Positions 4,109 through 61,601 of a DNA stretch of 64,000 nt are shown here, piece by piece. A program made the translations under genes and the position numbers. The notes under the pieces were generated by a model. The model ran no database searches and was not told where the DNA came from. It saw nothing but the letters and a program-made list of their open reading frames with translations. Position 1 is the first letter of the stretch. Each line of letters begins with the position of its first letter. Location of the stretch: the sequence record PZ445447.1. One strand, 5' to 3'. The stretch is from a phage.

Positions 4109-4534
4109 ATGATCTATGAAATGCCAAAACTGATTCGTGATGATGCCCAAAACGCTCACACCATTATTATGGGCAAACGCATGGATATTATTTGTCATAA
4201 AGACTTCTGGGAAGGGAGTTACTTCACAGAGTATTTTGGTAAACTGGACAATGGTCTGCTGATCCAGTTCTACACCGATGCGGAAAACAACATTCACTGG
4301 GAGTTCGAAACTGAAGATATCCATAAACTTTTCACCTTCCTTGGTATTAAGGTTGAGGCCAAGTTTGAAGAAGGTGAGTGCGACGATTGTGGATTCTATG
4401 AGGTAACAGATTTCTACCTTCCAAGTGGTAAAAATCTCTACTACGAAAGCCATTTCGGCAACTCAAATATGCCACAGGGTTGGGATGAGTTTTTGGAAAT
4501 TGCAGAAGAGGAGCTGGAATACCGTGATTATTGA
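4109..4534 (+). CDS. hypothetical protein
   Basis: ORF with GGAG RBS (ccggagaac); acidic C-terminus. Confidence 0.5.
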   Translation: MIYEMPKLIRDDAQNAHTIIMGKRMDIICHKDFWEGSYFTEYFGKLDNGLLIQFYTDAENNIHWEFETEDIHKLFTFLGIKVEAKFEEGECDDCGFYEVTDFYLPSGKNLYYESHFGNSNMPQGWDEFLEIAEEELEYRDY

Positions 4535-4982
4535 TACTGTAAAGGGAGATCTAATCTCCATTTTCAAGAAAGGGTCAGGCCACATGATCCACGGTTGTAA
4601 CTGCTTTCACACAATGGGTGCAGGTATAGCGAAAGATATTGCCCGTGAGTTCCCTCAAGCACTGGCAGCCGACAAAGAGACTGCTTATGGTAATCTAGAC
4701 AAGCTGGGTATGTTTTCTTGTTGGGAGCATTTTGCCAAGGCCAGGGTCGTATATGGAATCAACCTGTATACCCAGTTCTACCCAGGGCCCAATGCTGAAT
4801 ACTTCTCAATCATGAAAGGTTTTGAGCGAGTCAACGAGGTATTCAAAGGTATGTCATTGCCGTTCTACATTCCTAAAATCGGATGCGGTATTGGAGGTCT
4901 AAAGTGGGAACATGTAGAAGATGTAATTAATCTTGCAACCACAGATATTGATGTGGTTGTAGTAGAGTACAAAAAGTGTTGA
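4521..4982 (+). CDS. macro domain protein (Poa1-like ADP-ribose processing)
   Basis: GDLIS...HMIHGCNCFHTMGAGIAKDIA matches the macro-domain N-terminal strand plus H/N-C-x-x-x-MGAGIA signature of Poa1-like macro domains; start assumed GTG 4521 overlapping the upstream stop. Confidence 0.6.
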   Translation, partial: TVIIDTVKGDLISIFKKGSGHMIHGCNCFHTMGAGIAKDIAREFPQALAADKETAYGNLDKLGMFSCWEHFAKARVVYGINLYTQFYPGPNAEYFSIMKGFERVNEVFKGMSLPFYIPKIGCGIGGLKWEHVEDVINLATTDIDVVVVEYKKC

Positions 4983-52043: not shown

Positions 52044-53327
52044 TCATTCAAGCACCTCCCAAGTGTCTGGGTTAACATTTCGGACGCAGATACCGACAGG
52101 GAATTGGTAGTTGTTGTCTTCTGTCCTTGCTTGGTATTTGAAGGTGACAAACTTGCCGATCATTTCCTGCATCCTGTCATAGCTACGCTCCTCGTGCGTG
52201 CCTTTCATCTTCATTTTAACAACAACACCTTCCTTGTCAACACAGATAAGAACACCTTCATCATTCTTATCTTTCTCAACGTCAATAACTTTCACCTCTG
52301 CGTCGTTGAACTTTTTCCATTTCAATGCTTCAGATGTTCGCTGACCATACTCATATTTACCGCAGAAATTACGCATGATAGTACCTTCATATCCTTCGGA
52401 CATGAATATACCAACAGATTCTTCGCAATGATCAACTGTGTACGCAAGCTCCGCGTCAACAACCTTGATATGATCAAGCATCAGAGTGGTAACGGTATCC
52501 TCTGCATCCATAAGATCCTTGCAGCGTCCAGACTCTGTTTCTGGATCCCACCACACCTTGTCGCTAGGAATATCAAAAATGTGATACTCCAGATCGTAGC
52601 TACAGTATCCACCGTAACGCAAATCATCACGAACAGGCTCAACATCGACAGGAATATCTACCTTGTTGAAGTTTTTGTATGTTGATAAGCCTGCCTTAAT
52701 TGCTGCATGACGGCGTTTTTTATCTGCCTCATAGTCTTTATCGATCTCGGCCTGAATCTCTTCCTGTGTGCGCCACCGTTTAGCAAGAGACACTATTTTC
52801 TGCAAAGGAAGACCATGAATGTATAGTTCCCCATCAAGTTGTTTAATCCCAGTGGTAGAATGGAAAGAACGAAGTTGCTCTAAAAGCTTTCCTTGAATAG
52901 GGTAGGACTTATTACCACGGGAAATAAATTTAGGCTCACCATTTTGGAAAACAACAAGCAGACGAAGGCCATCTAACTTACGCAAGATCCAGCAAGGTAA
53001 TTTAAGTGCCTTGCCACGCTTCAGGTAGTCATGCACCAGCATAGGTAAAAGATCAACACCCTGCTCGCAATCTTCCATGTTTTCAACATACCCCAGACGG
53101 ACTTGTTTTTCCCACTTGCTGATAGCCTCAAGCTCGGCCTGTTGCTCAGCTGTAGTCTCGTTGGCACGACCTACGTTTTTAGGTGTACATACCGTCTCTT
53201 TGTACTGCAATTTACCGTCAAGCTTGCCAAACTCTACGATAACCTTTTCGCCATCAGTGAATACTTTCCACTGTTGGTAGCTGCCATCTTTGTTCAGTGC
53301 GTACAGTGTTGTTTTGATTTGATGCAT
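52044..53327 (-). CDS. ATP-dependent DNA ligase
   Basis: nucleotidyltransferase motif I ILRKLDGLR (KxDGxR); 427 aa. Confidence 0.7.
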   Translation of the reverse strand: MHQIKTTLYALNKDGSYQQWKVFTDGEKVIVEFGKLDGKLQYKETVCTPKNVGRANETTAEQQAELEAISKWEKQVRLGYVENMEDCEQGVDLLPMLVHDYLKRGKALKLPCWILRKLDGLRLLVVFQNGEPKFISRGNKSYPIQGKLLEQLRSFHSTTGIKQLDGELYIHGLPLQKIVSLAKRWRTQEEIQAEIDKDYEADKKRRHAAIKAGLSTYKNFNKVDIPVDVEPVRDDLRYGGYCSYDLEYHIFDIPSDKVWWDPETESGRCKDLMDAEDTVTTLMLDHIKVVDAELAYTVDHCEESVGIFMSEGYEGTIMRNFCGKYEYGQRTSEALKWKKFNDAEVKVIDVEKDKNDEGVLICVDKEGVVVKMKMKGTHEERSYDRMQEMIGKFVTFKYQARTEDNNYQFPVGICVRNVNPDTWEVLE

Positions 53328-53596
53328 TACTCGGCCTCTTCCTTAAAAATTTTAAACATCTCTTCTTTACTCATTACCAACCAGTCTCCCATAAAGTCAA
53401 CTAACCAATCTCCCTGGTACAAAACCAAGTTGCCAAACGGCTCAACAAGCTCACACATGCGACGAATATCTCTGGTCCGAACAGGTGACGATGTAAACAC
53501 ACCTGTATCAATCCACCGTTGCAGATCAGATACTGATGAAGAGCTTCCATCAAACTGGTGTGCTTCTACAGGTTTAGCAAGATTAAATAACGGCAT
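53327..53596 (-). CDS. hypothetical protein
   Basis: 89 aa; coupled to ligase. Confidence 0.5.
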   Translation of the reverse strand: MPLFNLAKPVEAHQFDGSSSSVSDLQRWIDTGVFTSSPVRTRDIRRMCELVEPFGNLVLYQGDWLVDFMGDWLVMSKEEMFKIFKEEAE

Positions 53597-53891
53597 TGCA
53601 GTCCTCCTTCTGTAGTAGGTCTTTTATAGGATAAACAAGTAAGTGTGGATCGGAATAACGTATAGTCCTATTCTGCCACACTATGAACTTTATTACAACC
53701 AAATTTACAATATCTTTATCACCATGTAGCCCAACACACACATTTGTCCATATTTTGTGGTTGAAGATCTTGCTATCGATGTAGATTTTAGTGTCAAACT
53801 TATCTTCCATTCTACCTATAAGTTTGATCAGCTCCTTCATCTGGTCGCCAAACACAGCATCTTTTTCAAGATCTCTGGAATGCTTGTACAT
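53583..53891 (-). CDS. hypothetical protein
   Basis: 102 aa. Confidence 0.5.
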   Translation of the reverse strand: MYKHSRDLEKDAVFGDQMKELIKLIGRMEDKFDTKIYIDSKIFNHKIWTNVCVGLHGDKDIVNLVVIKFIVWQNRTIRYSDPHLLVYPIKDLLQKEDCNAVI

Positions 53892-53953
53892 AACTAACTA
53901 CCTCACTGCATACTTTCCATAATAAGTAAAGCCGGGTAATCCCGGCTATGTTG

Positions 53954-54667
53954 TTAAATATACTCTGTTACATCCTTGAAGCTCGAAGGCTTCATAATCT
54001 TACCTTTACTGTCAAGGAATATAATAACTTTATTACCGTTGTAGAACTCCTCTTTAGCAACGAAACCTTCGTAGCGACCACCAAAACGACGCTCAAGATC
54101 TTCAATCTCTAACTCTATGAGCAATTCAGTAGACATATCTGCACTGGCACCGTGAGAATATCGTAGATGGTTGATCCGTGCAAACTTGCTGTCATTAGAT
54201 TTGAGAACCTTCCGCATCATCCCACACACATCGCCGCGAAGCTGGAACAGCAAAGCTGTTGACAACTCCGCTAAGCGGTAAGCTGACGCTCTTTGCTTGG
54301 ATGTGTTTTTCGCAGCGATCAGTGTATCATAGAACTCACCGATCTTGAACTTAAGACCTCGTGGATTATCAAACAGGTTTGACCACTTTTCGTGATTATC
54401 ATTAACAAGATAAGCGGCATAACTTGTGACAACGTGAAGATCGCAGGCCTCTTTTAGCAGGTGATCTCCACCATCACCTTTCTCCAGCTCTTCCAAAACC
54501 TCATTGAACTCTTCCTCAATGAAGCTAAGCTGTAATTCGAATGGTGTGTATGATTTTTTCACTTTAGCTGCCACACGGTTCCAGTTTTCCACCCAGTTGG
54601 CAGACCAAAGGTAGTTTTCAGGCTGAGACAGTTTTTCCAGGTTGTCGATCAGTTTAGTATTCAGCAT
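53954..54667 (-). CDS. hypothetical protein, possible MazG-like NTP pyrophosphohydrolase domain
   Basis: EEEFNEVLEELEKGDGGDHLLKEACDLH loosely fits the MazG E-x2-E...E-x2-D metal-binding pattern; weak. Confidence 0.4.
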   Translation of the reverse strand: MLNTKLIDNLEKLSQPENYLWSANWVENWNRVAAKVKKSYTPFELQLSFIEEEFNEVLEELEKGDGGDHLLKEACDLHVVTSYAAYLVNDNHEKWSNLFDNPRGLKFKIGEFYDTLIAAKNTSKQRASAYRLAELSTALLFQLRGDVCGMMRKVLKSNDSKFARINHLRYSHGASADMSTELLIELEIEDLERRFGGRYEGFVAKEEFYNGNKVIIFLDSKGKIMKPSSFKDVTEYI

Positions 54668-54680
54668 TAAAGGTCTCCTT

Positions 54681-55442
54681 TTAAAGTTCCATAAAGTTTT
54701 CTACGGTCTCAATGAATGTTTTATCAGAGAAAGCGTCAACCGCCCCGTTAAACCAAACCGGGATGCCGCGATCCTCGTACTGGTAAATATCACTACGTGA
54801 AATGCCATTCTCCTCTAGATGCTGTGAGTCGTATTTGTTAACGATCAGCAGTTTGGTGCCCTTATTGCAGGCAGGGAATAGCTCCCAGTTAAAATTGATA
54901 ACTGTGTTGGAACACCCTACAAGGATAACCATATCATTGCTTGTAAGAGAAGTCAACAGGTCATACATGTCTGTATACTTCGGAGCTACTTCTCCGAAGA
55001 ACACCACATTAGGTTTAACCCAGGTATACTTTCCTGCATCTACCTCAGAGTATCCAATGTCCTTAATGACGTCACTTCCTTCATCGTCCTCATAGACTAT
55101 TTCTGGCAAATACCCGTGAACATGTAAAATATCTTCATGTTTTACACCAGCACGCTCCAGCAAATCATCTACATTGGTGGTAAGGTTGATCACACGACCA
55201 GACCAGCGGGAATACCACTCAGCGATCCGAAGATGTGCAAGGTTAGGCTCAACACCGCCTAGAGCTACACGACGTGCATTGTAAAAGTCATGCACCTTGT
55301 AGTAGTTCTTGGCAAAGGTGTGGATGTTGCACACCTCATCGATGCTGAAATTCTCCCACATTGCAGTGCTACCAGATCGGAAAGTGGGAATACCAGATTC
55401 AGCGCTCAAACCAGCACCGGAGATAATAATCAGTCGTCGCAT
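54681..55442 (-). CDS. Sir2-family NAD-dependent protein (sirtuin-like)
   Basis: NAD-binding signature ISGAGLSAESGIPTFRS, plus HG and VVFFGE; no canonical CxxC...CxxC zinc ribbon seen. Confidence 0.75.
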   Translation of the reverse strand: MRRLIIISGAGLSAESGIPTFRSGSTAMWENFSIDEVCNIHTFAKNYYKVHDFYNARRVALGGVEPNLAHLRIAEWYSRWSGRVINLTTNVDDLLERAGVKHEDILHVHGYLPEIVYEDDEGSDVIKDIGYSEVDAGKYTWVKPNVVFFGEVAPKYTDMYDLLTSLTSNDMVILVGCSNTVINFNWELFPACNKGTKLLIVNKYDSQHLEENGISRSDIYQYEDRGIPVWFNGAVDAFSDKTFIETVENFMEL

Positions 55443-55450
55443 AAGTGTCC

Positions 55451-55801
55451 TCAGTAGATGTTTTGTTTAATCTCTATTCCAAACTTTTTAAACGAGTCAG
55501 CTGCAAGCATGAATTTACGAGCCGCTGATGGGTTAGAAGTATGCACGAAAATCTTCACGTTGTCAACTACAGGGGGCTCACCAAATACAAATTTTTCCTC
55601 CAACATAGATAGGCAATCGTACCCTTCGAACAACTCTCCAAGGTCGTTGTCCATGTGCCACTCAGAAACGCGTCTGTAGAGCTTTCCCCTATCGTTAATA
55701 AAATCTATAAACTCGGAGGAATTCTTTAGCCAAATAGCGTCGGGGAGCCCATAATTTGACGGATCTCTCAAGTCATCCAGCCACACAATCAACTTCTTCA
55801 T
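55451..55801 (-). CDS. hypothetical protein
   Basis: 116 aa; coupled to the RNA ligase gene. Confidence 0.5.
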   Translation of the reverse strand: MKKLIVWLDDLRDPSNYGLPDAIWLKNSSEFIDFINDRGKLYRRVSEWHMDNDLGELFEGYDCLSMLEEKFVFGEPPVVDNVKIFVHTSNPSAARKFMLAADSFKKFGIEIKQNIY

Positions 55802-56733
55802 TGCATATAGTTCTCGTTGTGGAAATAGTAATCAAGTATCTCACGGCGTTCCTGCTCCAGGAGGCAGTTCCACACATCTTCTGTGTAATTGTTACGAATG
55901 AAGTTTACCATGCCGTAAAACTCTTCGTCAACACGTTTAAAGATATCATCATCCCAAATCTTCCAAGCTTTACCCCTCATTACGGCCTTTCGTGCCAGAT
56001 AGTATGGAGACTTGATCTTCAACTGCAGATCATAAGGGTAGTAAGGCTTACGAATCATATATCCTTCACCTCTTGTTTCTGCAGCTAACTCTTTTGCATA
56101 GCTGAACGGAATTTCACGCACAGTGTGAGGACGTTTTGCACCAAGGTATTTGGCAATCCCATCTAAAGCGGCTTCTGGTAGCATTATTCCAGAATCATTA
56201 TATCTGCAACCTATCAAATATGCGCCATGGTCTTCTTGAACAATATGCGGATCTGAAGGGTGACAAATTTCAAACATGAATGTCATGTTTTCATTGCCCA
56301 TAACCTTCTTGATAAGATCTAAATTACCACATTGCTCTTGGATGGTTTCCTTTGCAAGGTTACAATATGGAGAATCAAGAGACCCGGTTGTTGAGAACAA
56401 TAGGTCACCTTTATGAGATGATACCACACCAAGGAATCCGTTCTTTTTCTCTACCGCAGTCACAAGCTTATTGTCAGGCAGGTTGGTGGAGTTTTCTCCC
56501 AAGTTAAACACTTTTGTGAAGGGCCATGCCACAACATTTCCTTCATTACCGACAACAATGCCTCGGCACTCCAGTAATCGAGGAGACAAATGCCATAAGT
56601 TGTTGTAGAATACTTTTCTGGCATATTTATAGATCTTTAACCCAAGATCTGGGTAATATCTGCTGGTTACAAGACCTTTGTCAACTAGGTCGTCTGCATT
56701 AAAATACTTCATCATACGTTCCTCATTTGTCAT
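55798..56733 (-). CDS. RNA ligase (T4 Rnl1-like)
   Basis: WHLSPRLLECRGIVV...KVFNLGEN parallels T4 Rnl1 WLLPDALECRGIMF...KFFNLNEN; motif I VEKKNGFLGV (KxNG); FMFEICHP and LKIKSPYY blocks. Confidence 0.7.
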   Translation of the reverse strand: MTNEERMMKYFNADDLVDKGLVTSRYYPDLGLKIYKYARKVFYNNLWHLSPRLLECRGIVVGNEGNVVAWPFTKVFNLGENSTNLPDNKLVTAVEKKNGFLGVVSSHKGDLLFSTTGSLDSPYCNLAKETIQEQCGNLDLIKKVMGNENMTFMFEICHPSDPHIVQEDHGAYLIGCRYNDSGIMLPEAALDGIAKYLGAKRPHTVREIPFSYAKELAAETRGEGYMIRKPYYPYDLQLKIKSPYYLARKAVMRGKAWKIWDDDIFKRVDEEFYGMVNFIRNNYTEDVWNCLLEQERREILDYYFHNENYMQ

Positions 56734-57251: not shown

Positions 57252-57806
57252 ATGAAATACTTTGTAACAAGCGACACACACTTTCTCCACCAGCGGGTCA
57301 TGGAGTTTGACTCATGTCAAAAACACAGATCTCAGTATGATCACAATCTTGACAGTATGAATGCGGGGATCATCACCAAGTGGAACTCTGTTGTGTCACC
57401 TGCAGACACTGTGTTTCACTTAGGAGATATTGCGTGCACTAATGATAAGAATATTAACAAATTGCTCCCAGATGTTCTAAATATGTTGAACGGACATATT
57501 ATTCTTGTTCGTGGTAACCATGACACAAGGACGACTGTCAGAATTATGAAAGAGTTCGGTCATGAGGTTGTAGATTATTACGAGCTTCGCCACAACAAGA
57601 ATTTGATCTGTATGAGCCATTACCAGTTTGCAAAGTGGAACAGAAAGCCTCACGGATCAGTCCAACTGTTCGGTCATGCTCACGGAACCACACAACAGTT
57701 GTTTGGCAGACAGTTTGATGTCGGTTGGGATGTGTGGGGGAGACTCTTACCATTAGAAGAGGCATACCGTATTGCAATGAGTTTTGCTATTGACAGCGGG
57801 GAGTAA
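57252..57806 (+). CDS. calcineurin-like metallophosphoesterase
   Basis: metallophosphatase motifs SDTHF, GDIA, GNHD, GHAH; 8 nt after the kinase gene. Confidence 0.7.
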   Translation: MKYFVTSDTHFLHQRVMEFDSCQKHRSQYDHNLDSMNAGIITKWNSVVSPADTVFHLGDIACTNDKNINKLLPDVLNMLNGHIILVRGNHDTRTTVRIMKEFGHEVVDYYELRHNKNLICMSHYQFAKWNRKPHGSVQLFGHAHGTTQQLFGRQFDVGWDVWGRLLPLEEAYRIAMSFAIDSGE

Positions 57807-59718: not shown

Positions 59719-59961
59719 ATGTTTAAGGTTAAGCTCGTTTTTCGTTCCATGAATGAGGATTATTTAGAAGATGAAGGTGAATTTCGTGCACTGGATGATG
59801 CAATAGATTTTGCCAACGACTTAGCTTGTATGAATACAGGTTATGGGCTATGTTGTTGGGATGGTGGTGTTCAGATCGGTGATAGCAAGATCTTCTACTT
59901 CTACCCTGAGCCTGATAACAAACAAATTAAGTATGTTTTATTTATTTGTGCTTTACAATGA
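59719..59961 (+). CDS. hypothetical protein
   Basis: 80 aa; cgaggtctacaggtaatgct upstream; promoter-like TTGACA at 59640. Confidence 0.5.
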   Translation: MFKVKLVFRSMNEDYLEDEGEFRALDDAIDFANDLACMNTGYGLCCWDGGVQIGDSKIFYFYPEPDNKQIKYVLFICALQ

Positions 59962-60039
59962 GGTTGTTTTCGTGTATCATGATGAATATCCAATTTAAAG
60001 ATGAATTTGATGGCTTTATCTCTGGATGCTTTGAAACAG

Positions 60040-60250
60040 GGTTCGGAGAAGACTGAGTTCCCCTTAGAGGGCTTGATAGTGCACCACACTTAAAATGGTA
60101 GGGGCAGCCAGCACATGACGATGTGACCCCAGCCAACCTGTAACAAGGTCGAGCCGAAGCGCGGGTAATAGGCCTCTGGTAACCCACTTGTTGGGTCTTG
60201 CTGGCCCAGGACGCTGGACAAGTCGCAGGGAATACCACCCTGCGGCGAAC
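60040..60250. other. GC-rich structured non-coding island (candidate ncRNA)
   Basis: GC-rich with multiple inverted repeats between two plus-strand genes; the only ORF here is a low-complexity antisense one. Confidence 0.3.
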
Positions 60251-60279
60251 TTGACAATCAGTATTTGCTATGATAAAAT
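60251..60279 (+). promoter_or_regulatory. sigma70-type promoter
   Basis: TTGACA (60251) - 17 nt - TAAAAT. Confidence 0.5.
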
Positions 60280-60307
60280 CCACCTATCACGTGATAATGG
60301 AGGAAAC

Positions 60308-60646
60308 ATGGCGGATACAACTAAAAAGCGTCGCCGTAGAGGCAGACCTCTGAAAGAGGAGTCCAACGCCATTCAGCTAGAGAAGAACATCCTTGATATG
60401 AAGGAATCTTTTATAGCGATGGTTCCAGAAGCTCACAAAGTTTTAAGAGAGCTGATGTTGGACCCGAAAACCAAACAAAATATTCGTCAAAGCATTGCAG
60501 AGTATGTTCTTGATAAGGCAGACCGAATGCAGGAAGAATATGATGAGATGTTTGGTGAAGAGGAAGAGGTGGTAGTGGAAGAGGCTGAAAAACCAGCACC
60601 TTTTATGCCATTTACTACAGAAATACAGCCTGTTAGCAATAGCTAA
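60308..60646 (+). CDS. hypothetical protein with basic AT-hook-like N-terminus
   Basis: ATG 60308 after ggaggaaac RBS; KKRRRRGRPLKE then acidic C-terminus. Confidence 0.5.
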   Translation: MADTTKKRRRRGRPLKEESNAIQLEKNILDMKESFIAMVPEAHKVLRELMLDPKTKQNIRQSIAEYVLDKADRMQEEYDEMFGEEEEVVVEEAEKPAPFMPFTTEIQPVSNS

Positions 60647-60655
60647 AATATTTTC

Positions 60656-60684
60656 TTGACAAACTTTGCTTAACAGTGTAATAT
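60656..60684 (+). promoter_or_regulatory. sigma70-type promoter upstream of tRNA cluster
   Basis: TTGACA (60656) - 17 nt - TAATAT (60679). Confidence 0.55.
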
Positions 60685-60742
60685 TGTAAACATGGTCTCC
60701 CACCTTTTCTGGCGGCTAAGGTGTAAAAGAAAGCCACCCAGT

Positions 60743-60817
60743 GCCCTGTTAGCTTAGTGGATAAAGCAGCGGCCTTCTAAGCCGTTGACACTGGTTCGAG
60801 TCCAGTACGGGGTGCCA
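60743..60817 (+). tRNA. tRNA-Arg (anticodon TCT)
   Basis: manual cloverleaf: acceptor gccctgt/acggggt, D-stem gctt/aagc, anticodon loop cttctaa, T-arm actgg-ttcgagt-ccagt, encoded CCA. Confidence 0.8.
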
Positions 60818-60821
60818 AATT

Positions 60822-60908
60822 GGGGAGTTATCCCGTAGAGGTAGCGGTGTAGACTGTAAATCTATTGTCATTGCGACTCGGGTGGTTCGACTCCACCACT
60901 CCCCACCA
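60822..60908 (+). tRNA. tRNA-Tyr (anticodon GTA), type II
   Basis: acceptor ggggagt/actcccc, anticodon loop ctgtaaa, long variable arm, T-arm ggtgg-ttcgact-ccacc, encoded CCA. Confidence 0.75.
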
Positions 60909-61022
60909 AATTTATATTTTTAGATGCATAAATAATACAGATAATGGCATTGATATTTATCGTCGTTTATACTAGTCACTAACTGCTCGAAAATCAGTGT
61001 CATTATCAGTATAATTTATAAA

Positions 61023-61113
61023 GGAGGGTAGGGAGCAATGGTGCTCAAGCGGTCTTGAAAACCGTCCCGTTGAGGATGACTCGATGATGGTTCGATTCCA
61101 TTACTCTCCGCCA
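61023..61113 (+). tRNA. tRNA-Ser (anticodon TGA), type II
   Basis: acceptor ggagggt/actctcc, anticodon arm gcggt-cttgaaa-accgt, long variable arm, T-loop ttcgatt, encoded CCA. Confidence 0.75.
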
Positions 61114-61211
61114 CATTGTTGACCTTGTAATTAAGCGAAAGCCGGAAGCAGAACCGGATTATCAAATGTTACAGTCGTCATCGCCGACTAGCAACATGGT
61201 CAACATACTGA

Positions 61212-61310
61212 GCTAGGTAAGCCCTTTGGCAAGGGCGAGGATTTTTAATCCTGAAAATAGACGAGGTAGTCGTTGAATACATAGGTGGTTCGATTCCATC
61301 ACCTAGCACC
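61212..61310 (+). tRNA. atypical tRNA-like gene (anticodon ambiguous, TTT if 7-nt loop)
   Basis: acceptor gctaggt/acctagc, D-arm gccc-tttggcaa-gggc and T-arm ggtgg-ttcgatt-ccatc are canonical, but anticodon stem is imperfect and 29 nt lie between anticodon arm and T-arm; 99 nt total. Confidence 0.4.
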
Positions 61311-61315
61311 TTTTT

Positions 61316-61391
61316 GCTGATGTAGCACAATCGGTAGTGCAATTGATTTGTAATCAATAGGTTGTAGGTTCAAGTCCTGCCATCAGCACCA
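61316..61391 (+). tRNA. tRNA-Thr (anticodon TGT)
   Basis: acceptor gctgatg/catcagc, D-stem gcac/gtgc, anticodon arm attga-tttgtaa-tcaat, T-loop ttcaagt, encoded CCA. Confidence 0.8.
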
Positions 61392-61392
61392 A

Positions 61393-61467
61393 GGCCCTGT
61401 AGCTGGAAGGTTCAAGCAAGCGACTCATAATCGCCAGACGGTGGTTCAATTCCACCCAGGGCCACCA
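61393..61467 (+). tRNA. tRNA with CAT anticodon (Met or lysidine-type Ile)
   Basis: acceptor ggccctg/cagggcc, anticodon loop ctcataa, T-arm ggtgg-ttcaatt-ccacc, encoded CCA; 3-bp D-stem and A.C at top of anticodon stem. Confidence 0.65.
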
Positions 61468-61478
61468 AATAGTAAATA

Positions 61479-61555
61479 CTCCGCGTAGCTCAGCTTGGTA
61501 GAGCGCCTGATTTGGGATCAGGAGGTCGAGTGTTCGAATCACTCCGTGGAGACCA
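61479..61555 (+). tRNA. tRNA-Pro (anticodon TGG)
   Basis: acceptor ctccgcg/cgtggag, D-arm gctc-agcttggta-gagc, anticodon arm cctga-tttggga-tcagg, T-loop ttcgaat, encoded CCA. Confidence 0.8.
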
Positions 61556-61601
61556 CTTTCAGTTATACTTTAAACATATATAAACAAAAGGAACCTTTAA
61601 A

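What the first reader, a model, noticed from the sequence alone, without database searches (positions are those of the whole stretch)
54681..55442. Sir2-domain protein without a zinc ribbon, in a genome that also encodes a Poa1-like macro domain (4521-4982)
The ORF has a clear sirtuin NAD-binding signature (GAGLSAESGIPTFRS, HG, VVFFGE) but I see no CxxC...CxxC zinc-binding module. Zinc-less Sir2 domains in bacteria often act as NADases or ADP-ribosyltransferases and are frequently paired with macro domains that remove ADP-ribose. The same genome carries a macro-domain gene about 50 kb away. Together they could be a phage toolkit for manipulating or reversing NAD/ADP-ribose-based host defences or host protein modification. 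The neighbour 53954-54667 may carry a MazG-like pyrophosphohydrolase motif.
Basis: partly seen in the sequence, partly recalled or inferred. Interest (0 to 1): 0.6.

Follow-up and report, generated by a model that had tools for sequence, protein, structure and literature searches.

The report
Zinc-less phage sirtuin in RNA-repair operon
This is the already annotated sirtuin of an rV5-like E. coli phage: it has lost its zinc-binding cysteines but kept its catalytic residues, and it sits in a tRNA/RNA-repair operon rather than being paired with the distant macro-domain gene, a layout already described in print but never tested experimentally.

Summary
The window is Escherichia phage MaxBurger (Bas54, Vequintavirus). 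The ORF at 54681-55442 lies on the minus strand and is gene bas54_0207, annotated as a sirtuin.

**Observation: correct.** It is a clear Sir2 domain with no zinc-binding cysteines. The catalytic His, the NAD motifs and the class III Y-x-x-R motif are all kept. The small beta-sheet module remains, but its second zinc knuckle is deleted. The macro domain is real, and the neighbour is MazG/HisE-like at family level.

**Interpretation: only partly holds.**
- The protein is closest to CobB/SIRT5.
- It matches no model of the PADLOC defence library (Pfam matches only SIR2) and is not a macro-linked SirTM. SirTMs keep the zinc site and lack the catalytic His.
- The macro family is distributed independently. 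T5-like phage SP15 has this sirtuin but no detectable macro. T4-like phages appear among the macro hits and not in the sampled Sir2 hits.

**Real context.** The gene sits in an operon of RNA ligase 1, cREC, Sir2 and MazG-like, next to polynucleotide kinase, a phosphoesterase and DNA ligase.

**Prior work.** Iyer et al. 2022 described this layout with rV5 as the prototype and predicted a KptA/Tpt1-like removal of RNA 2'-phosphate. Skliros et al. 2016 noted zinc-less Sir2 in Vibrio phages. Nothing has been tested experimentally.

I favour a role in RNA repair (0.4) over a protein deacylase (0.3).

The parts
54681..55442 (-). Sir2 (sirtuin) gene, 253 aa, without zinc cysteines; bas54_0207
   Evidence: Pfam SIR2 95.3 bits. 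PHROG 2162 E 3e-109. AF2 pLDDT 90.8. Foldseek top hit CobB, TM 0.74-0.84. Cys only at residues 38, 177 and 192.
55451..55801 (-). cREC (cyclic-phosphate processing receiver-like) gene; its start overlaps the stop of the RNA ligase gene by 4 nt, and it ends 8 nt before the Sir2 start
   Evidence: Pfam PF20274 cREC_REC 55.4 bits. The invariant DD...D...S/T-N-P residues are kept in 8 homologues.
55798..56733 (-). T4 Rnl1-type RNA ligase gene (annotated start at 56715)
   Evidence: Pfam RNA_lig_T4_1 55.3 bits. PHROG 562 E 2e-66. Annotated 'RNA ligase' in MZ501093.
53954..54667 (-). MazG/HisE-superfamily-like pyrophosphohydrolase gene, last gene of the operon; carries an EEEFNEVLEE...KEACD motif
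   Evidence: PHROG 671 E 5.7e-22. 17/17 family members hit PRA-PH and 15/17 hit MazG. The window protein alone is sub-threshold. The fold search was inconclusive.
53930..53947 (-). G+C-rich hairpin AGCCGGG-TAAT-CCCGGCT, 7 nt after the MazG-like stop; likely terminator closing the Rnl1-cREC-Sir2-MazG-like unit
   Evidence: Terminator scan: 7 pairs, 6 of them G-C. A 'terminator' feature is annotated in this stretch of phage EdH4.
56834..57244 (+). P-loop polynucleotide kinase gene, divergently transcribed
   Evidence: Pfam AAA_33 40.8 bits. Annotated 'polynucleotide kinase'. Conserved in related clusters.
57252..57806 (+). Calcineurin-like metallophosphoesterase gene
   Evidence: Pfam Metallophos_2 29 bits and Metallophos 27.8 bits. 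Conserved in related clusters.
52044..53327 (-). ATP-dependent DNA ligase gene, a conserved member of the same gene block
   Evidence: Pfam DNA_ligase_A_M and OB_2. PHROG 114 E 3e-83. Found next to the cluster in all related loci.
53327..53891 (-). Two small conserved hypothetical genes (53327-53596 and 53583-53891) between DNA ligase and the terminator
   Evidence: Homologues recur in Mydovirus-type and other related clusters at E 1e-10 to 1e-19.
4524..4982 (+). Macro-domain gene (T4 Tk.4 family; TARG1/DarG/Poa1p class), bas54_0092; not linked to the Sir2 operon
   Evidence: Pfam Macro 26.2 bits. PHROG 335 E 3e-59. DarG models at 46 bits, far below the 250-bit cut-off. PDB hits. Annotated 'hypothetical'.

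Best explanation
**Shown**
- The gene encodes a single-domain sirtuin. It belongs to a largely phage-borne subclade derived from class III (CobB/SIRT5-like) sirtuins.
- The subclade has lost the four zinc cysteines and the second zinc knuckle. It has also changed the Gln of the (T)QN(I/V)D motif to Thr.
- It keeps the NAD-binding motifs, the Asn and Asp of the motif (TTNVD), the catalytic His109 and the Y54-x-x-R57 pair.
- The gene is third in a tightly packed operon: Rnl1-type RNA ligase, cREC, Sir2, MazG-like. A hairpin ends the operon.
- The operon sits inside a block holding polynucleotide kinase, a metallophosphoesterase and DNA ligase. This is a tRNA/RNA end-healing and sealing module.

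**Inferred**
- The sirtuin supplies an NAD+-dependent step of that repair pathway.
- The most specific proposal is from Iyer et al. 2022. An RNA 2'-phosphate, left after a 2',3'-cyclic phosphate is opened, attacks C1'' of NAD+. Nicotinamide leaves. [quoted passage not shown]
- cREC, a phosphatase or macro domain, and the MazG-like enzyme would then clear the by-product.

Loss of the zinc site is a lineage trait. It does not itself mark a switch to NADase or ADP-ribosyltransferase chemistry.
For: **Identity**
- The window is MaxBurger at 99.998-100% identity, wrapping around the record end.

**Operon**
- The genes overlap by 4 nt or are separated by gaps of 8 and 13 nt. A hairpin follows at 53930-53947.

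**Conserved cluster**
- The block (phosphoesterase, Rnl1, cREC, kinase, Sir2, DNA ligase, MazG-like) recurs with rearrangements in about 14 viral contigs of 93-153 kb.

**Associations with RNA repair or tRNA processing in other gene arrangements**
- In 29 T5-like loci (29 of 70), a HAD_SAK_2 'Swiss-army-knife RNA repair' phosphatase lies no more than about 450 nt downstream of the Sir2 (Pfam 72.7 bits).
- In jumbo contig L061, an Rnl1-type ligase lies two genes upstream (99.8 bits).
- In jumbo contig L067, a CCA-adding enzyme is the next gene.

**Zinc state versus context**
- L061 and L067 keep four Cys and TQN. The RNA context is therefore shared by zinc-bearing and zinc-less members.

**NAD-related neighbours**
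- In the Mydovirus-type locus L079, the cluster is flanked by a NAMPT-family enzyme, PRPP synthetase, an SPFH/Band_7 protein and NADAR. This fits an active NAD+ consumer.

**Catalytic residues**
- G9 A10 G11, S16, F21 R22, Y54, R57, N90, D92, H109 and the FGE motif are invariant in 50 family members.

**Published prediction**
- Iyer et al. 2022 named phage V5 as the prototype of this neighbourhood (PMC9503650).
Against: - No biochemical or genetic test exists; literature searches found none.
- The protein is strongly acidic, with pI 4.81 and 37 D+E against 22 K+R. The family median is 5.14. The zinc-less module alone has 9 D+E against 3 K+R. E. coli KptA has pI 9.37. This is not what an RNA-binding cleft would lead one to expect.
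- Linkage is not obligatory. In three Phapecoctavirus contigs the cluster cREC-phosphoesterase-(Rnl1-kinase)-DNA ligase-MazG-like lacks Sir2, which lies 31-34 kb away.
- The T5-like phage SP15 has the Sir2 but no detectable Rnl1, cREC or kinase. The source of a 2'-phosphate junction there is unclear.
- 27 of the 70 Sir2 loci showed no RNA-repair partner within 8 kb, using my single-sequence queries.
- The kinase plus metallophosphoesterase pair could heal ends without leaving any 2'-phosphate.
- The closest characterised relatives are all protein deacylases.
Confidence: 0.4

Rival explanations
1. It is an ordinary NAD+-dependent protein lysine deacylase (deacetylase or desuccinylase) like CobB. 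It would act on host or phage proteins during infection. The small module would be held together without zinc, and the position next to RNA-repair genes would reflect shared timing or a protein substrate within that pathway.
For: - Best sequence matches are E. coli CobB (1s5p, E 4e-21) and SIRT5 (E 6e-21), ahead of Sir2Tm (1.6e-13) and SIRT2 (6e-12).
- Best fold matches are CobB (TM 0.74-0.84), then Sir2Af1 and SIRT5.
- The NCBIfam hits are all to CobB-type deacylase models.
- The Y-x-x-R pair aligns with FYNARR of CobB and is invariant. From my own knowledge, these residues bind acidic acyl groups in CobB and SIRT5.
- The catalytic His and the FGE loop are kept.
- The acidic surface would suit basic protein substrates.
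- Skliros et al. 2016 proposed this role for zinc-less Sir2 of Vibrio phages.
Against: - All NCBIfam scores are far below the curated cut-offs (122 against 243; 103 against 320).
- The zinc module is reported to be required for deacetylation by canonical sirtuins (PMC12700824). Here its cysteines are gone and one knuckle is deleted.
- The Gln of TQNxD is replaced by Thr across the subclade.
- The V-Y-P substrate loop of CobB reads V-I-N-F here.
- The repeated adjacency to RNA-repair genes in several unrelated gene arrangements is left unexplained.
Confidence: 0.3
2. The zinc-less Sir2 is an NADase or ADP-ribosyltransferase that works with the macro domain, as a toolkit to modify host proteins or to reverse host defences based on NAD/ADP-ribose.
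For: - Both genes exist in one genome.
- The macro belongs to the TARG1/DarG/Poa1p class.
- A phage DarG2-like macro (AdfM) has been shown to counter DarTG2 (PMC13309987).
- Other Vequintavirinae carry NADAR anti-DarT1 factors.
- Some phages carry both genes. They are 6 kb apart in the SE131-like locus L047.
Against: - The Sir2 has no PADLOC hit, and its only Pfam match is SIR2.
- SirTM features are not met: the protein has HG rather than QG, and the macro is not adjacent.
- The two genes are about 50 kb apart, on opposite strands, in different gene blocks.
- The macro family is about 2.7 times more widespread. It occurs in T4-like phages, which do not appear in the sampled Sir2 hits. T5-like SP15 has the Sir2 without a macro.
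- Gln85 of the macro aligns with the DarG 'PTK' lysine.
Confidence: 0.1
3. The Sir2 acts on a small molecule rather than a macromolecule. For example, it could transfer ADP-ribose to a phosphorylated nucleotide or metabolite. The product would then be handled by cREC and the MazG-like pyrophosphohydrolase encoded beside it.
For: - The protein is acidic, single-domain and has a reduced substrate-binding module.
- It is co-transcribed with a MazG/HisE-like nucleotide pyrophosphohydrolase.
- One jumbo-phage relative lies next to a nucleoside 2-deoxyribosyltransferase-like gene.
- NAMPT and PRPP synthetase flank the cluster in L079.
Against: - None of the papers read here reports this chemistry for a PF02146 sirtuin with an intact His (my own knowledge agrees).
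- The idea rests on context alone and names no specific substrate.
Confidence: 0.1

Closest known systems
Phage RNA-repair-associated sirtuin clade, neighbourhood type 2 (Iyer, Burroughs, Anantharaman, Aravind 2022, Viruses 14:1977)
   Same: This is that system. The prototype named in the paper is Escherichia phage V5, and the region here is 99.1% identical to rV5-type records. The gene set matches: T4-like RNA ligase, cREC, nucleotide kinase, MazG-superfamily pyrophosphatase, calcineurin-like phosphoesterase, and no adjacent macro.
   Different: Nothing material differs. The paper does not mention the loss of zinc cysteines, the Gln-to-Thr change, the acidic charge, or the Phapecoctavirus case where the Sir2 has left the cluster (searching its text for 'zinc' found nothing on the sirtuin). 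Its mechanism is a prediction only.
E. coli CobB and human SIRT5 (class III sirtuin deacylases)
   Same: Best sequence and fold matches. They share GAGxS, F-R, N-x-D, the HG catalytic His, the FGE loop and the Y-x-x-R motif.
   Different: There are no zinc cysteines and the second knuckle is deleted. TQNxD becomes TTNVD, and the V-Y-P loop becomes V-I-N-F. Scores are well below the curated CobB cut-offs. The protein is phage-encoded and sits in an RNA-repair operon.
Zinc-less Sir2/CobB of Vibrio 'schizoT4-like' phages (KVP40, phiSt2, phiGrn1; Skliros et al. 2016)
   Same: These are phage sirtuins in which absence of the zinc ligand site was already noted. The authors list T5, My1 and JD001 homologues as related.
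   Different: The Vibrio-phage proteins listed match at about 43-49% identity over 79-86% of the query. I did not check whether KVP40 or phiSt2 are among them. That work proposed deacetylation of host enzymes such as Acs and did not consider the RNA-repair context.
SirTM (class M, macrodomain-linked ADP-ribosylating sirtuins; Rack et al. 2015)
   Same: Sirtuin fold; a macro domain is present in the same genome.
   Different: SirTMs keep the zinc domain, replace HG by QG, and have the macro gene adjacent or fused. Here HG is present, the zinc cysteines are absent and the macro is about 50 kb away.
SIR2_2 defence NADases (ThsA, DSR1/2, Sir2-HerA, pAgo-associated Sir2)
   Same: They lack a zinc-binding module and consume NAD+.
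   Different: Those proteins lack the whole module. From my own knowledge, they also carry sensor or partner domains. This protein is a stand-alone PF02146 domain that keeps the beta-sheet module and hits no PADLOC model.
Tpt1/KptA RNA 2'-phosphotransferase
   Same: This is the proposed functional analogue. The chemistry is NAD+-dependent, with nucleophilic attack on C1'' followed by attack of the 2''-OH. It also shares a context of tRNA ligase plus cyclic phosphodiesterase.
   Different: It has an unrelated fold. KptA is basic (pI 9.37) and this protein is acidic (pI 4.81). No KptA homologue was detected in any locus examined. The analogy is untested.
T4 Tk.4 / TARG1 / DarG / Poa1p macro domains (for the ORF at 4524-4982)
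   Same: Matches Pfam Macro. Matches the T4-type tk.4 ORFs at 38-45% identity. Shows PDB sequence similarity to SCO6735, DarG, Poa1p and TARG1.
   Different: It scores far below the DarG equivalog cut-off (45.8 against 250). Gln85 aligns with the DarG 'PTK' lysine. It has no DarT-binding domain. Its function is unknown.

Membership tests
Sir2 family (Pfam PF02146) | Profile match above the gathering score, covering the whole domain | tested here: met
   95.3 bits against a cut-off of 24; residues 9-181 cover profile positions 1-178 of 180.
Sir2 family (Pfam PF02146) | NAD-binding and catalytic residues: GAGxS, F-R, N-x-D, HG | tested here: met
   G9 A10 G11, S16, F21 R22, N90, D92 and H109 G110 are invariant in 50 family members. 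The Gln before Asn is Thr (TTNVD).
Canonical zinc-containing sirtuins (classes I-IV, U) | Cys-x-x-Cys ... Cys-x-x-Cys zinc site in the small domain | tested here: not met
   No Cys in residues 110-143. No CxxC in 110 homologues. The second knuckle is deleted relative to zinc-bearing relatives.
Class III sirtuins (CobB/SIRT5 type) | Y-x-x-R motif in the acyl pocket | tested here: met
   FYNARR aligns with FYNARR of CobB and FYHYRR of SIRT5. Y54 and R57 are invariant.
Class III sirtuins (CobB/SIRT5 type) | Score above the curated CobB/deacylase model cut-offs (NCBIfam) | tested here: not met
   NF001753 scores 122.4 against 243. NF040867 prot_deacyl_CobB scores 102.7 against 320.
Class III sirtuins (CobB/SIRT5 type) | NAD+-dependent lysine deacylase activity | not testable with these tools
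   Needs an enzyme assay.
Phage RNA-repair-associated sirtuins, type 2 neighbourhood (Iyer et al. 2022) | Sirtuin gene linked to T4-like RNA ligase, cREC, nucleotide kinase, MazG-superfamily pyrophosphatase and (sometimes) a calcineurin-like phosphoesterase | tested here: met
   All five partners lie within 3.9 kb. The arrangement is conserved in related contigs.
Phage RNA-repair-associated sirtuins, type 2 neighbourhood (Iyer et al. 2022) | No adjacent macro-domain gene | tested here: met
   The only macro ORF found is at 4524-4982, about 50 kb away. No macro hit occurs in the cluster loci.
Phage RNA-repair-associated sirtuins, type 2 neighbourhood (Iyer et al. 2022) | KptA-like removal of RNA 2'-phosphate | not testable with these tools
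   This is a prediction only. No experiment was found.
SirTM (class M) | Catalytic HG replaced by QG | tested here: not met
   H109-G110 are present and invariant.
SirTM (class M) | Macro-domain gene adjacent in the operon, or fused | tested here: not met
   The macro is about 50 kb away on the other strand.
Defence-type Sir2 NADases (SIR2_2; ThsA, DSR, Sir2-HerA) | Match to SIR2_2 or to defence-system profiles | tested here: not met
   No PADLOC hit at E<=0.01. Pfam returns only PF02146.
Macro domain (Pfam PF01661), ORF 4524-4982 | Profile match above the gathering score | tested here: met
   26.2 bits against a cut-off of 22, covering profile positions 1-117 of 118.
DarG-type DNA ADP-ribosyl glycohydrolase, ORF 4524-4982 | Equivalog-level score and the catalytic Lys of the PTK motif | tested here: not met
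   45.8 bits against a cut-off of 250. Gln85 aligns with that Lys in the DarG 5m3i alignment. The identity of the catalytic Lys rests on my knowledge of K80.
Poa1p-type ADP-ribose 1''-phosphate phosphatase, ORF 4524-4982 | Similarity across the whole domain, and Appr1p phosphatase activity | tested here: inconclusive
   The PDB 6lfu hit has E 7.5e-5 but covers residues 6-49 only. Activity is not testable here.
MazG/HisE all-alpha NTP pyrophosphohydrolase superfamily, ORF 53954-54667 | Profile match and the E-x-x-E ... E-x-x-D metal-binding motif | tested here: inconclusive
   The window protein matches PRA-PH at 13.7 bits against a cut-off of 21.3. All 17 family members hit PRA-PH (best E 4.8e-6) and 15 hit MazG (best E 5.9e-5). 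PHROG 671 gives E 5.7e-22. EEEFNEVLEE...KEACD is present. Foldseek gives only weak matches to dimeric dUTPases, probability 0.57-0.69.

The most novel reading that the evidence does not exclude
The phage sirtuin replaces Tpt1/KptA without being related to it. [quoted passage not shown] A phosphatase or the Tk.4/Poa1-class macro domain would finish the job. Together these would rebuild the yeast Tpt1-Cpd1-Poa1 route from unrelated folds. This would be the first sirtuin shown to act on a nucleic acid.
Probability: 0.25. Interest if true: 0.7.

Novelty: already known. Interest (0 to 1): 0.3.

Why it matters
If the published prediction is right, sirtuin chemistry extends from acyl-lysine to RNA phosphate. 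Large coliphages would then carry an NAD+-dependent step in tRNA repair, presumably to survive host anticodon nucleases. That would link NAD+ supply genes (NAMPT, PRPP synthetase) and ADP-ribose-processing genes (cREC, macro, NADAR) in these phages to RNA repair, not only to countering NAD+ depletion.

As it stands, the gene is annotated and its context is described. What remains open is the biochemistry. The subclade-wide loss of the zinc site, the accompanying Gln-to-Thr change and the acidic surface are small additions. They should guide which substrates are tested first.

Tried and rejected
1. **Defence-type NADase.** Rejected. The Sir2 has no PADLOC hit, and Pfam returns only SIR2.
2. **SirTM.** Rejected on both defining features.
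3. **Genome-wide Sir2-macro pairing.** Rejected. T5-like SP15 has no macro by phmmer at E<=10. The macro family is far wider and includes T4-like phages.
4. **A macro inside the RNA-ligase gene of Klebsiella phage K23PH08C2.** The hit table suggested this. It turned out to be a feature table offset from the sequence. The real neighbour of that macro is a separate Rnl2-like ligase.
5. **Zinc loss and Gln-to-Thr as repeated co-evolution.**
   - The raw 2x2 table is striking (79/14/7/43, Fisher p 4e-17).
   - A neighbour-joining tree built without those columns puts most zinc-less/Thr sequences in one clade.
   - Parsimony gives about 9 changes of zinc state. The association is therefore mainly shared ancestry.
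6. **KptA displacement test.** No KptA homologue was found in any fetched locus, so the test was uninformative.
7. **Domain fusions in ten long relatives.** Only a tandem Sir2, WG repeats and a GIY-YIG domain turned up; nothing pointed to a function.
8. **MazG-like protein against PDB.** Sequence and profile searches found nothing. The Foldseek search of a moderate model (pLDDT 74.9) was inconclusive.
9. **Promoter scan.** Not above the shuffled expectation (22 found against 17.0 +/- 3.6), so it was not used.
10. **Neighbours of the Sir2 in Phapecoctavirus tuntematon and of the macro in the window.** No informative domains.
Full report
**Source and gene**

The window is Escherichia phage MaxBurger (Bas54, MZ501093.1, Vequintavirus). 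It matches that record at 99.998-100% identity and wraps around the record end. The flagged ORF lies on the minus strand at 54681-55442 and encodes 253 aa. It is gene bas54_0207, annotated 'sirtuin domain NAD-dependent deacetylase'. The 2.9-kb region recurs in 121 phage records at 90% identity or more.

- The protein matches Pfam SIR2 at 95.3 bits over the whole domain and PHROG 2162 at E 3e-109.
- It has three cysteines, at residues 38, 177 and 192. None lies in residues 110-143 between HG and KPNVVFFGE.
- My pattern caught this segment in 110 of 120 homologues at about 50-98% identity. None has CxxC.
- An AlphaFold2 model built on 50 family members is confident (pLDDT 90.8, pTM 0.88). It still places three beta strands there.
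- An alignment with zinc-bearing relatives shows the first knuckle substituted and slightly lengthened, and the second CxxC knuckle deleted.

The zinc ribbon has therefore been remodelled, not removed.

**What kind of sirtuin it is**

- Sequence search of solved structures ranks E. coli CobB (E 4e-21) and SIRT5 (E 6e-21) first, ahead of Sir2Tm and SIRT2.
- Foldseek ranks CobB first (TM 0.74-0.84), then Sir2Af1 and SIRT5.
- The residues GAG, S16, F21-R22, N90, D92, H109-G110 and the FGE loop are invariant in the family.
- So are Y54 and R57, which align with FYNARR of CobB and FYHYRR of SIRT5.
- Scores against curated CobB-type models are far below their cut-offs.
- No PADLOC defence model matches, and Pfam returns only SIR2.

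I searched 1.84 billion representative proteins with the family profile and examined the 150 best hits.

- Sequences with four Cys mostly have TQND. Sequences without Cys mostly have TTND.
- A tree built without those columns puts most zinc-less/Thr sequences in a single clade that contains the query.
- The two changes are therefore mainly shared ancestry of one subclade, not repeated co-evolution.
- An I-G-Y motif in the small module is shared by zinc-bearing and zinc-less members.

- On the minus strand, an Rnl1-type RNA ligase, a cREC protein, the Sir2 and a MazG-like protein follow one another. They overlap by 4 nt or are separated by gaps of 8 and 13 nt.
- A G+C-rich hairpin lies 7 nt after the last stop.
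- Divergently transcribed are a P-loop polynucleotide kinase and a calcineurin-like phosphoesterase.
- Downstream on the minus strand are two small conserved genes and an ATP-dependent DNA ligase.
- The block recurs, rearranged, in about 14 viral contigs of 93-153 kb.

Other gene arrangements link the same sirtuin clade to RNA repair or tRNA processing.

- In 29 T5-like loci, a HAD_SAK_2 'Swiss-army-knife RNA repair' phosphatase lies just downstream.
- In a 608-kb contig, an Rnl1 ligase lies two genes upstream.
- In a 285-kb contig, a CCA-adding enzyme is the next gene.
- Those two jumbo-phage relatives keep four Cys and TQN. The RNA context therefore does not depend on the zinc state.
- In a Mydovirus-type locus, the cluster is flanked by a NAMPT-family enzyme, PRPP synthetase, an SPFH/Band_7 protein and NADAR.

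**Prior work**

Iyer, Burroughs, Anantharaman and Aravind (2022) described exactly this neighbourhood. They named Escherichia phage V5 and Proteus phage Mydo as prototypes. They also noted the SP15-type HAD association and the absence of an adjacent macro gene. They proposed that the sirtuin acts like KptA, removing RNA 2'-phosphate. Skliros et al. (2016) had already noted that Sir2/CobB of KVP40-like Vibrio phages lacks the zinc site. They proposed a host-protein deacetylase and listed T5 and My1 homologues. I found no experimental study.

- Macro-linked sirtuins (SirTM) keep the zinc domain, replace the catalytic His by Gln, and have the macro gene adjacent or fused. This protein is the opposite on each count.
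- SIR2_2 defence NADases lack the whole module.
- The macro ORF (4524-4982) is real. It belongs to the T4 Tk.4 family and to the TARG1/DarG/Poa1p class.
- It lies about 50 kb away in a block of small genes on the other strand.
- Its family is found in 2699 phage records against 991 for the Sir2.
- T4-like phages dominate the sampled macro hits and do not appear in the sampled Sir2 hits.
- T5-like SP15 has the Sir2 and no detectable macro in its whole genome.
- In the DarG alignment, Gln85 sits at the 'PTK' lysine. This argues against a DarG-type mechanism, although a phage DarG2-like macro has recently been shown to counter DarTG2.
- The MazG-like guess is supported at family level but is sub-threshold for this protein alone. 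The fold search was inconclusive.

**Which mechanism**

Context favours an NAD+-dependent step in RNA repair. The chemistry is plausible, because both sirtuins and Tpt1 start with attack on C1'' of NAD+ and then use the 2''-OH. I see four caveats.

- The protein is very acidic (pI 4.81; family median 5.14), and its remodelled module has 9 acidic against 3 basic residues. E. coli KptA has pI 9.37.
- In three Phapecoctavirus contigs, the repair cluster lacks the Sir2, which lies 31-34 kb away.
- SP15 has the Sir2 without a detectable ligase, cREC or kinase.
- The kinase plus metallophosphoesterase pair could heal ends without leaving a 2'-phosphate.

The closest characterised relatives are all protein deacylases. 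I therefore weight the options as follows:

| Model | Confidence |
|---|---|
| RNA-repair role | 0.4 |
| Protein deacylase | 0.3 |
| Small-molecule acceptor | 0.1 |

**Verdict**

The functional reading was drawn from the wrong sirtuin families and overlooked the operon. Both the zinc-less state of phage sirtuins and this exact gene neighbourhood are already published, so the finding is already known. What remains open is the enzyme's substrate, which simple assays could settle.

Noticed in passing
L079 2583-17334 (IMGVR_UViG_2974540528, Mydovirus-type, 147 kb): The Sir2/RNA-repair cluster is flanked by a NAMPT/NAPRTase-family gene, PRPP synthetase, an SPFH/Band_7 gene and a NADAR gene. Together they form an 'NAD/ADP-ribose plus RNA repair' island of about 15 kb. 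I saw no such flanks in the window.
   Followed up: partly
L085, L087, L088 (the same contigs as Sir2 loci L035, L034, L032): In Phapecoctavirus-type contigs the cluster cREC-phosphoesterase-(Rnl1-kinase)-DNA ligase-MazG-like is present without the Sir2. L088 lacks detectable Rnl1 and kinase. The Sir2 lies 31-34 kb away among genes with no recognised domains.
   Followed up: partly
L077 6980-8903 (Klebsiella phage vB_Kpn_K23PH08C2, OY757067.1): A Tk.4-type macro ORF lies 338 nt upstream of an RNA ligase of the PF09414 (Rnl2-like) family. This hints that the macro family may itself be tied to RNA repair. The feature table of this record is offset from its sequence, so the features listed under hits are wrong.
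   Followed up: partly
window 4524-4982, residue 85 of the macro protein: Gln (Y-T-Q) aligns with the 'PTK' lysine of DarG. The two other family members examined (L047, L077) read Y-(T/S)-Q in the corresponding stretch of their sequences. This points to a mechanism or substrate different from DarG or TARG1.
   Followed up: partly
150 best representatives of the Sir2 profile search: Loss of the zinc cysteines goes with replacement of Gln by Thr in the (T)QN(I/V)D NAD-ribose motif (79/14/7/43). The association is mostly explained by one clade. I have no structural reason for the pairing.
   Followed up: yes
window 53930-53947: A perfect 7-bp hairpin (6 G-C pairs, 4-nt loop) lies between the MazG-like stop and the next gene. 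It reads the same on both strands and could terminate transcription in either direction.
   Followed up: no
phage records MG065635, MG065677 and others: Between 18 and 25 records named 'Campylobacter phage', with host given as C. jejuni, are about 93% identical to this E. coli Vequintavirus region. Mislabelled hosts or contaminating coliphages seem likely.
   Followed up: no
L071 8142-8648 (SP15 gp118) and rV5-like records with 'Sir2-like protein (x2)': PHROG 18062 is labelled 'Sir2' but matches the C-terminal half of the HAD_SAK_2 phosphatase, not a sirtuin. This explains the second 'Sir2' annotation in SP15. A similar mislabel may lie behind the 'Sir2-like (x2)' annotations in rV5-like records, but I did not check that.
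   Followed up: partly
L062 8713-9198 and L061 6818-7723: In jumbo-phage contigs, the zinc-bearing relatives of this Sir2 lie next to a nucleoside 2-deoxyribosyltransferase-like gene (L062) and an arginase-family gene (L061).
   Followed up: no
window about 59800-61600 (MaxBurger 135113-135925): Six tRNA genes (Arg, Tyr, Lys, Thr, Ile, Pro) lie about 3 kb downstream of the kinase/phosphoesterase pair. T5-like SP15, which has the same sirtuin, carries 23 tRNA genes.
   Followed up: no
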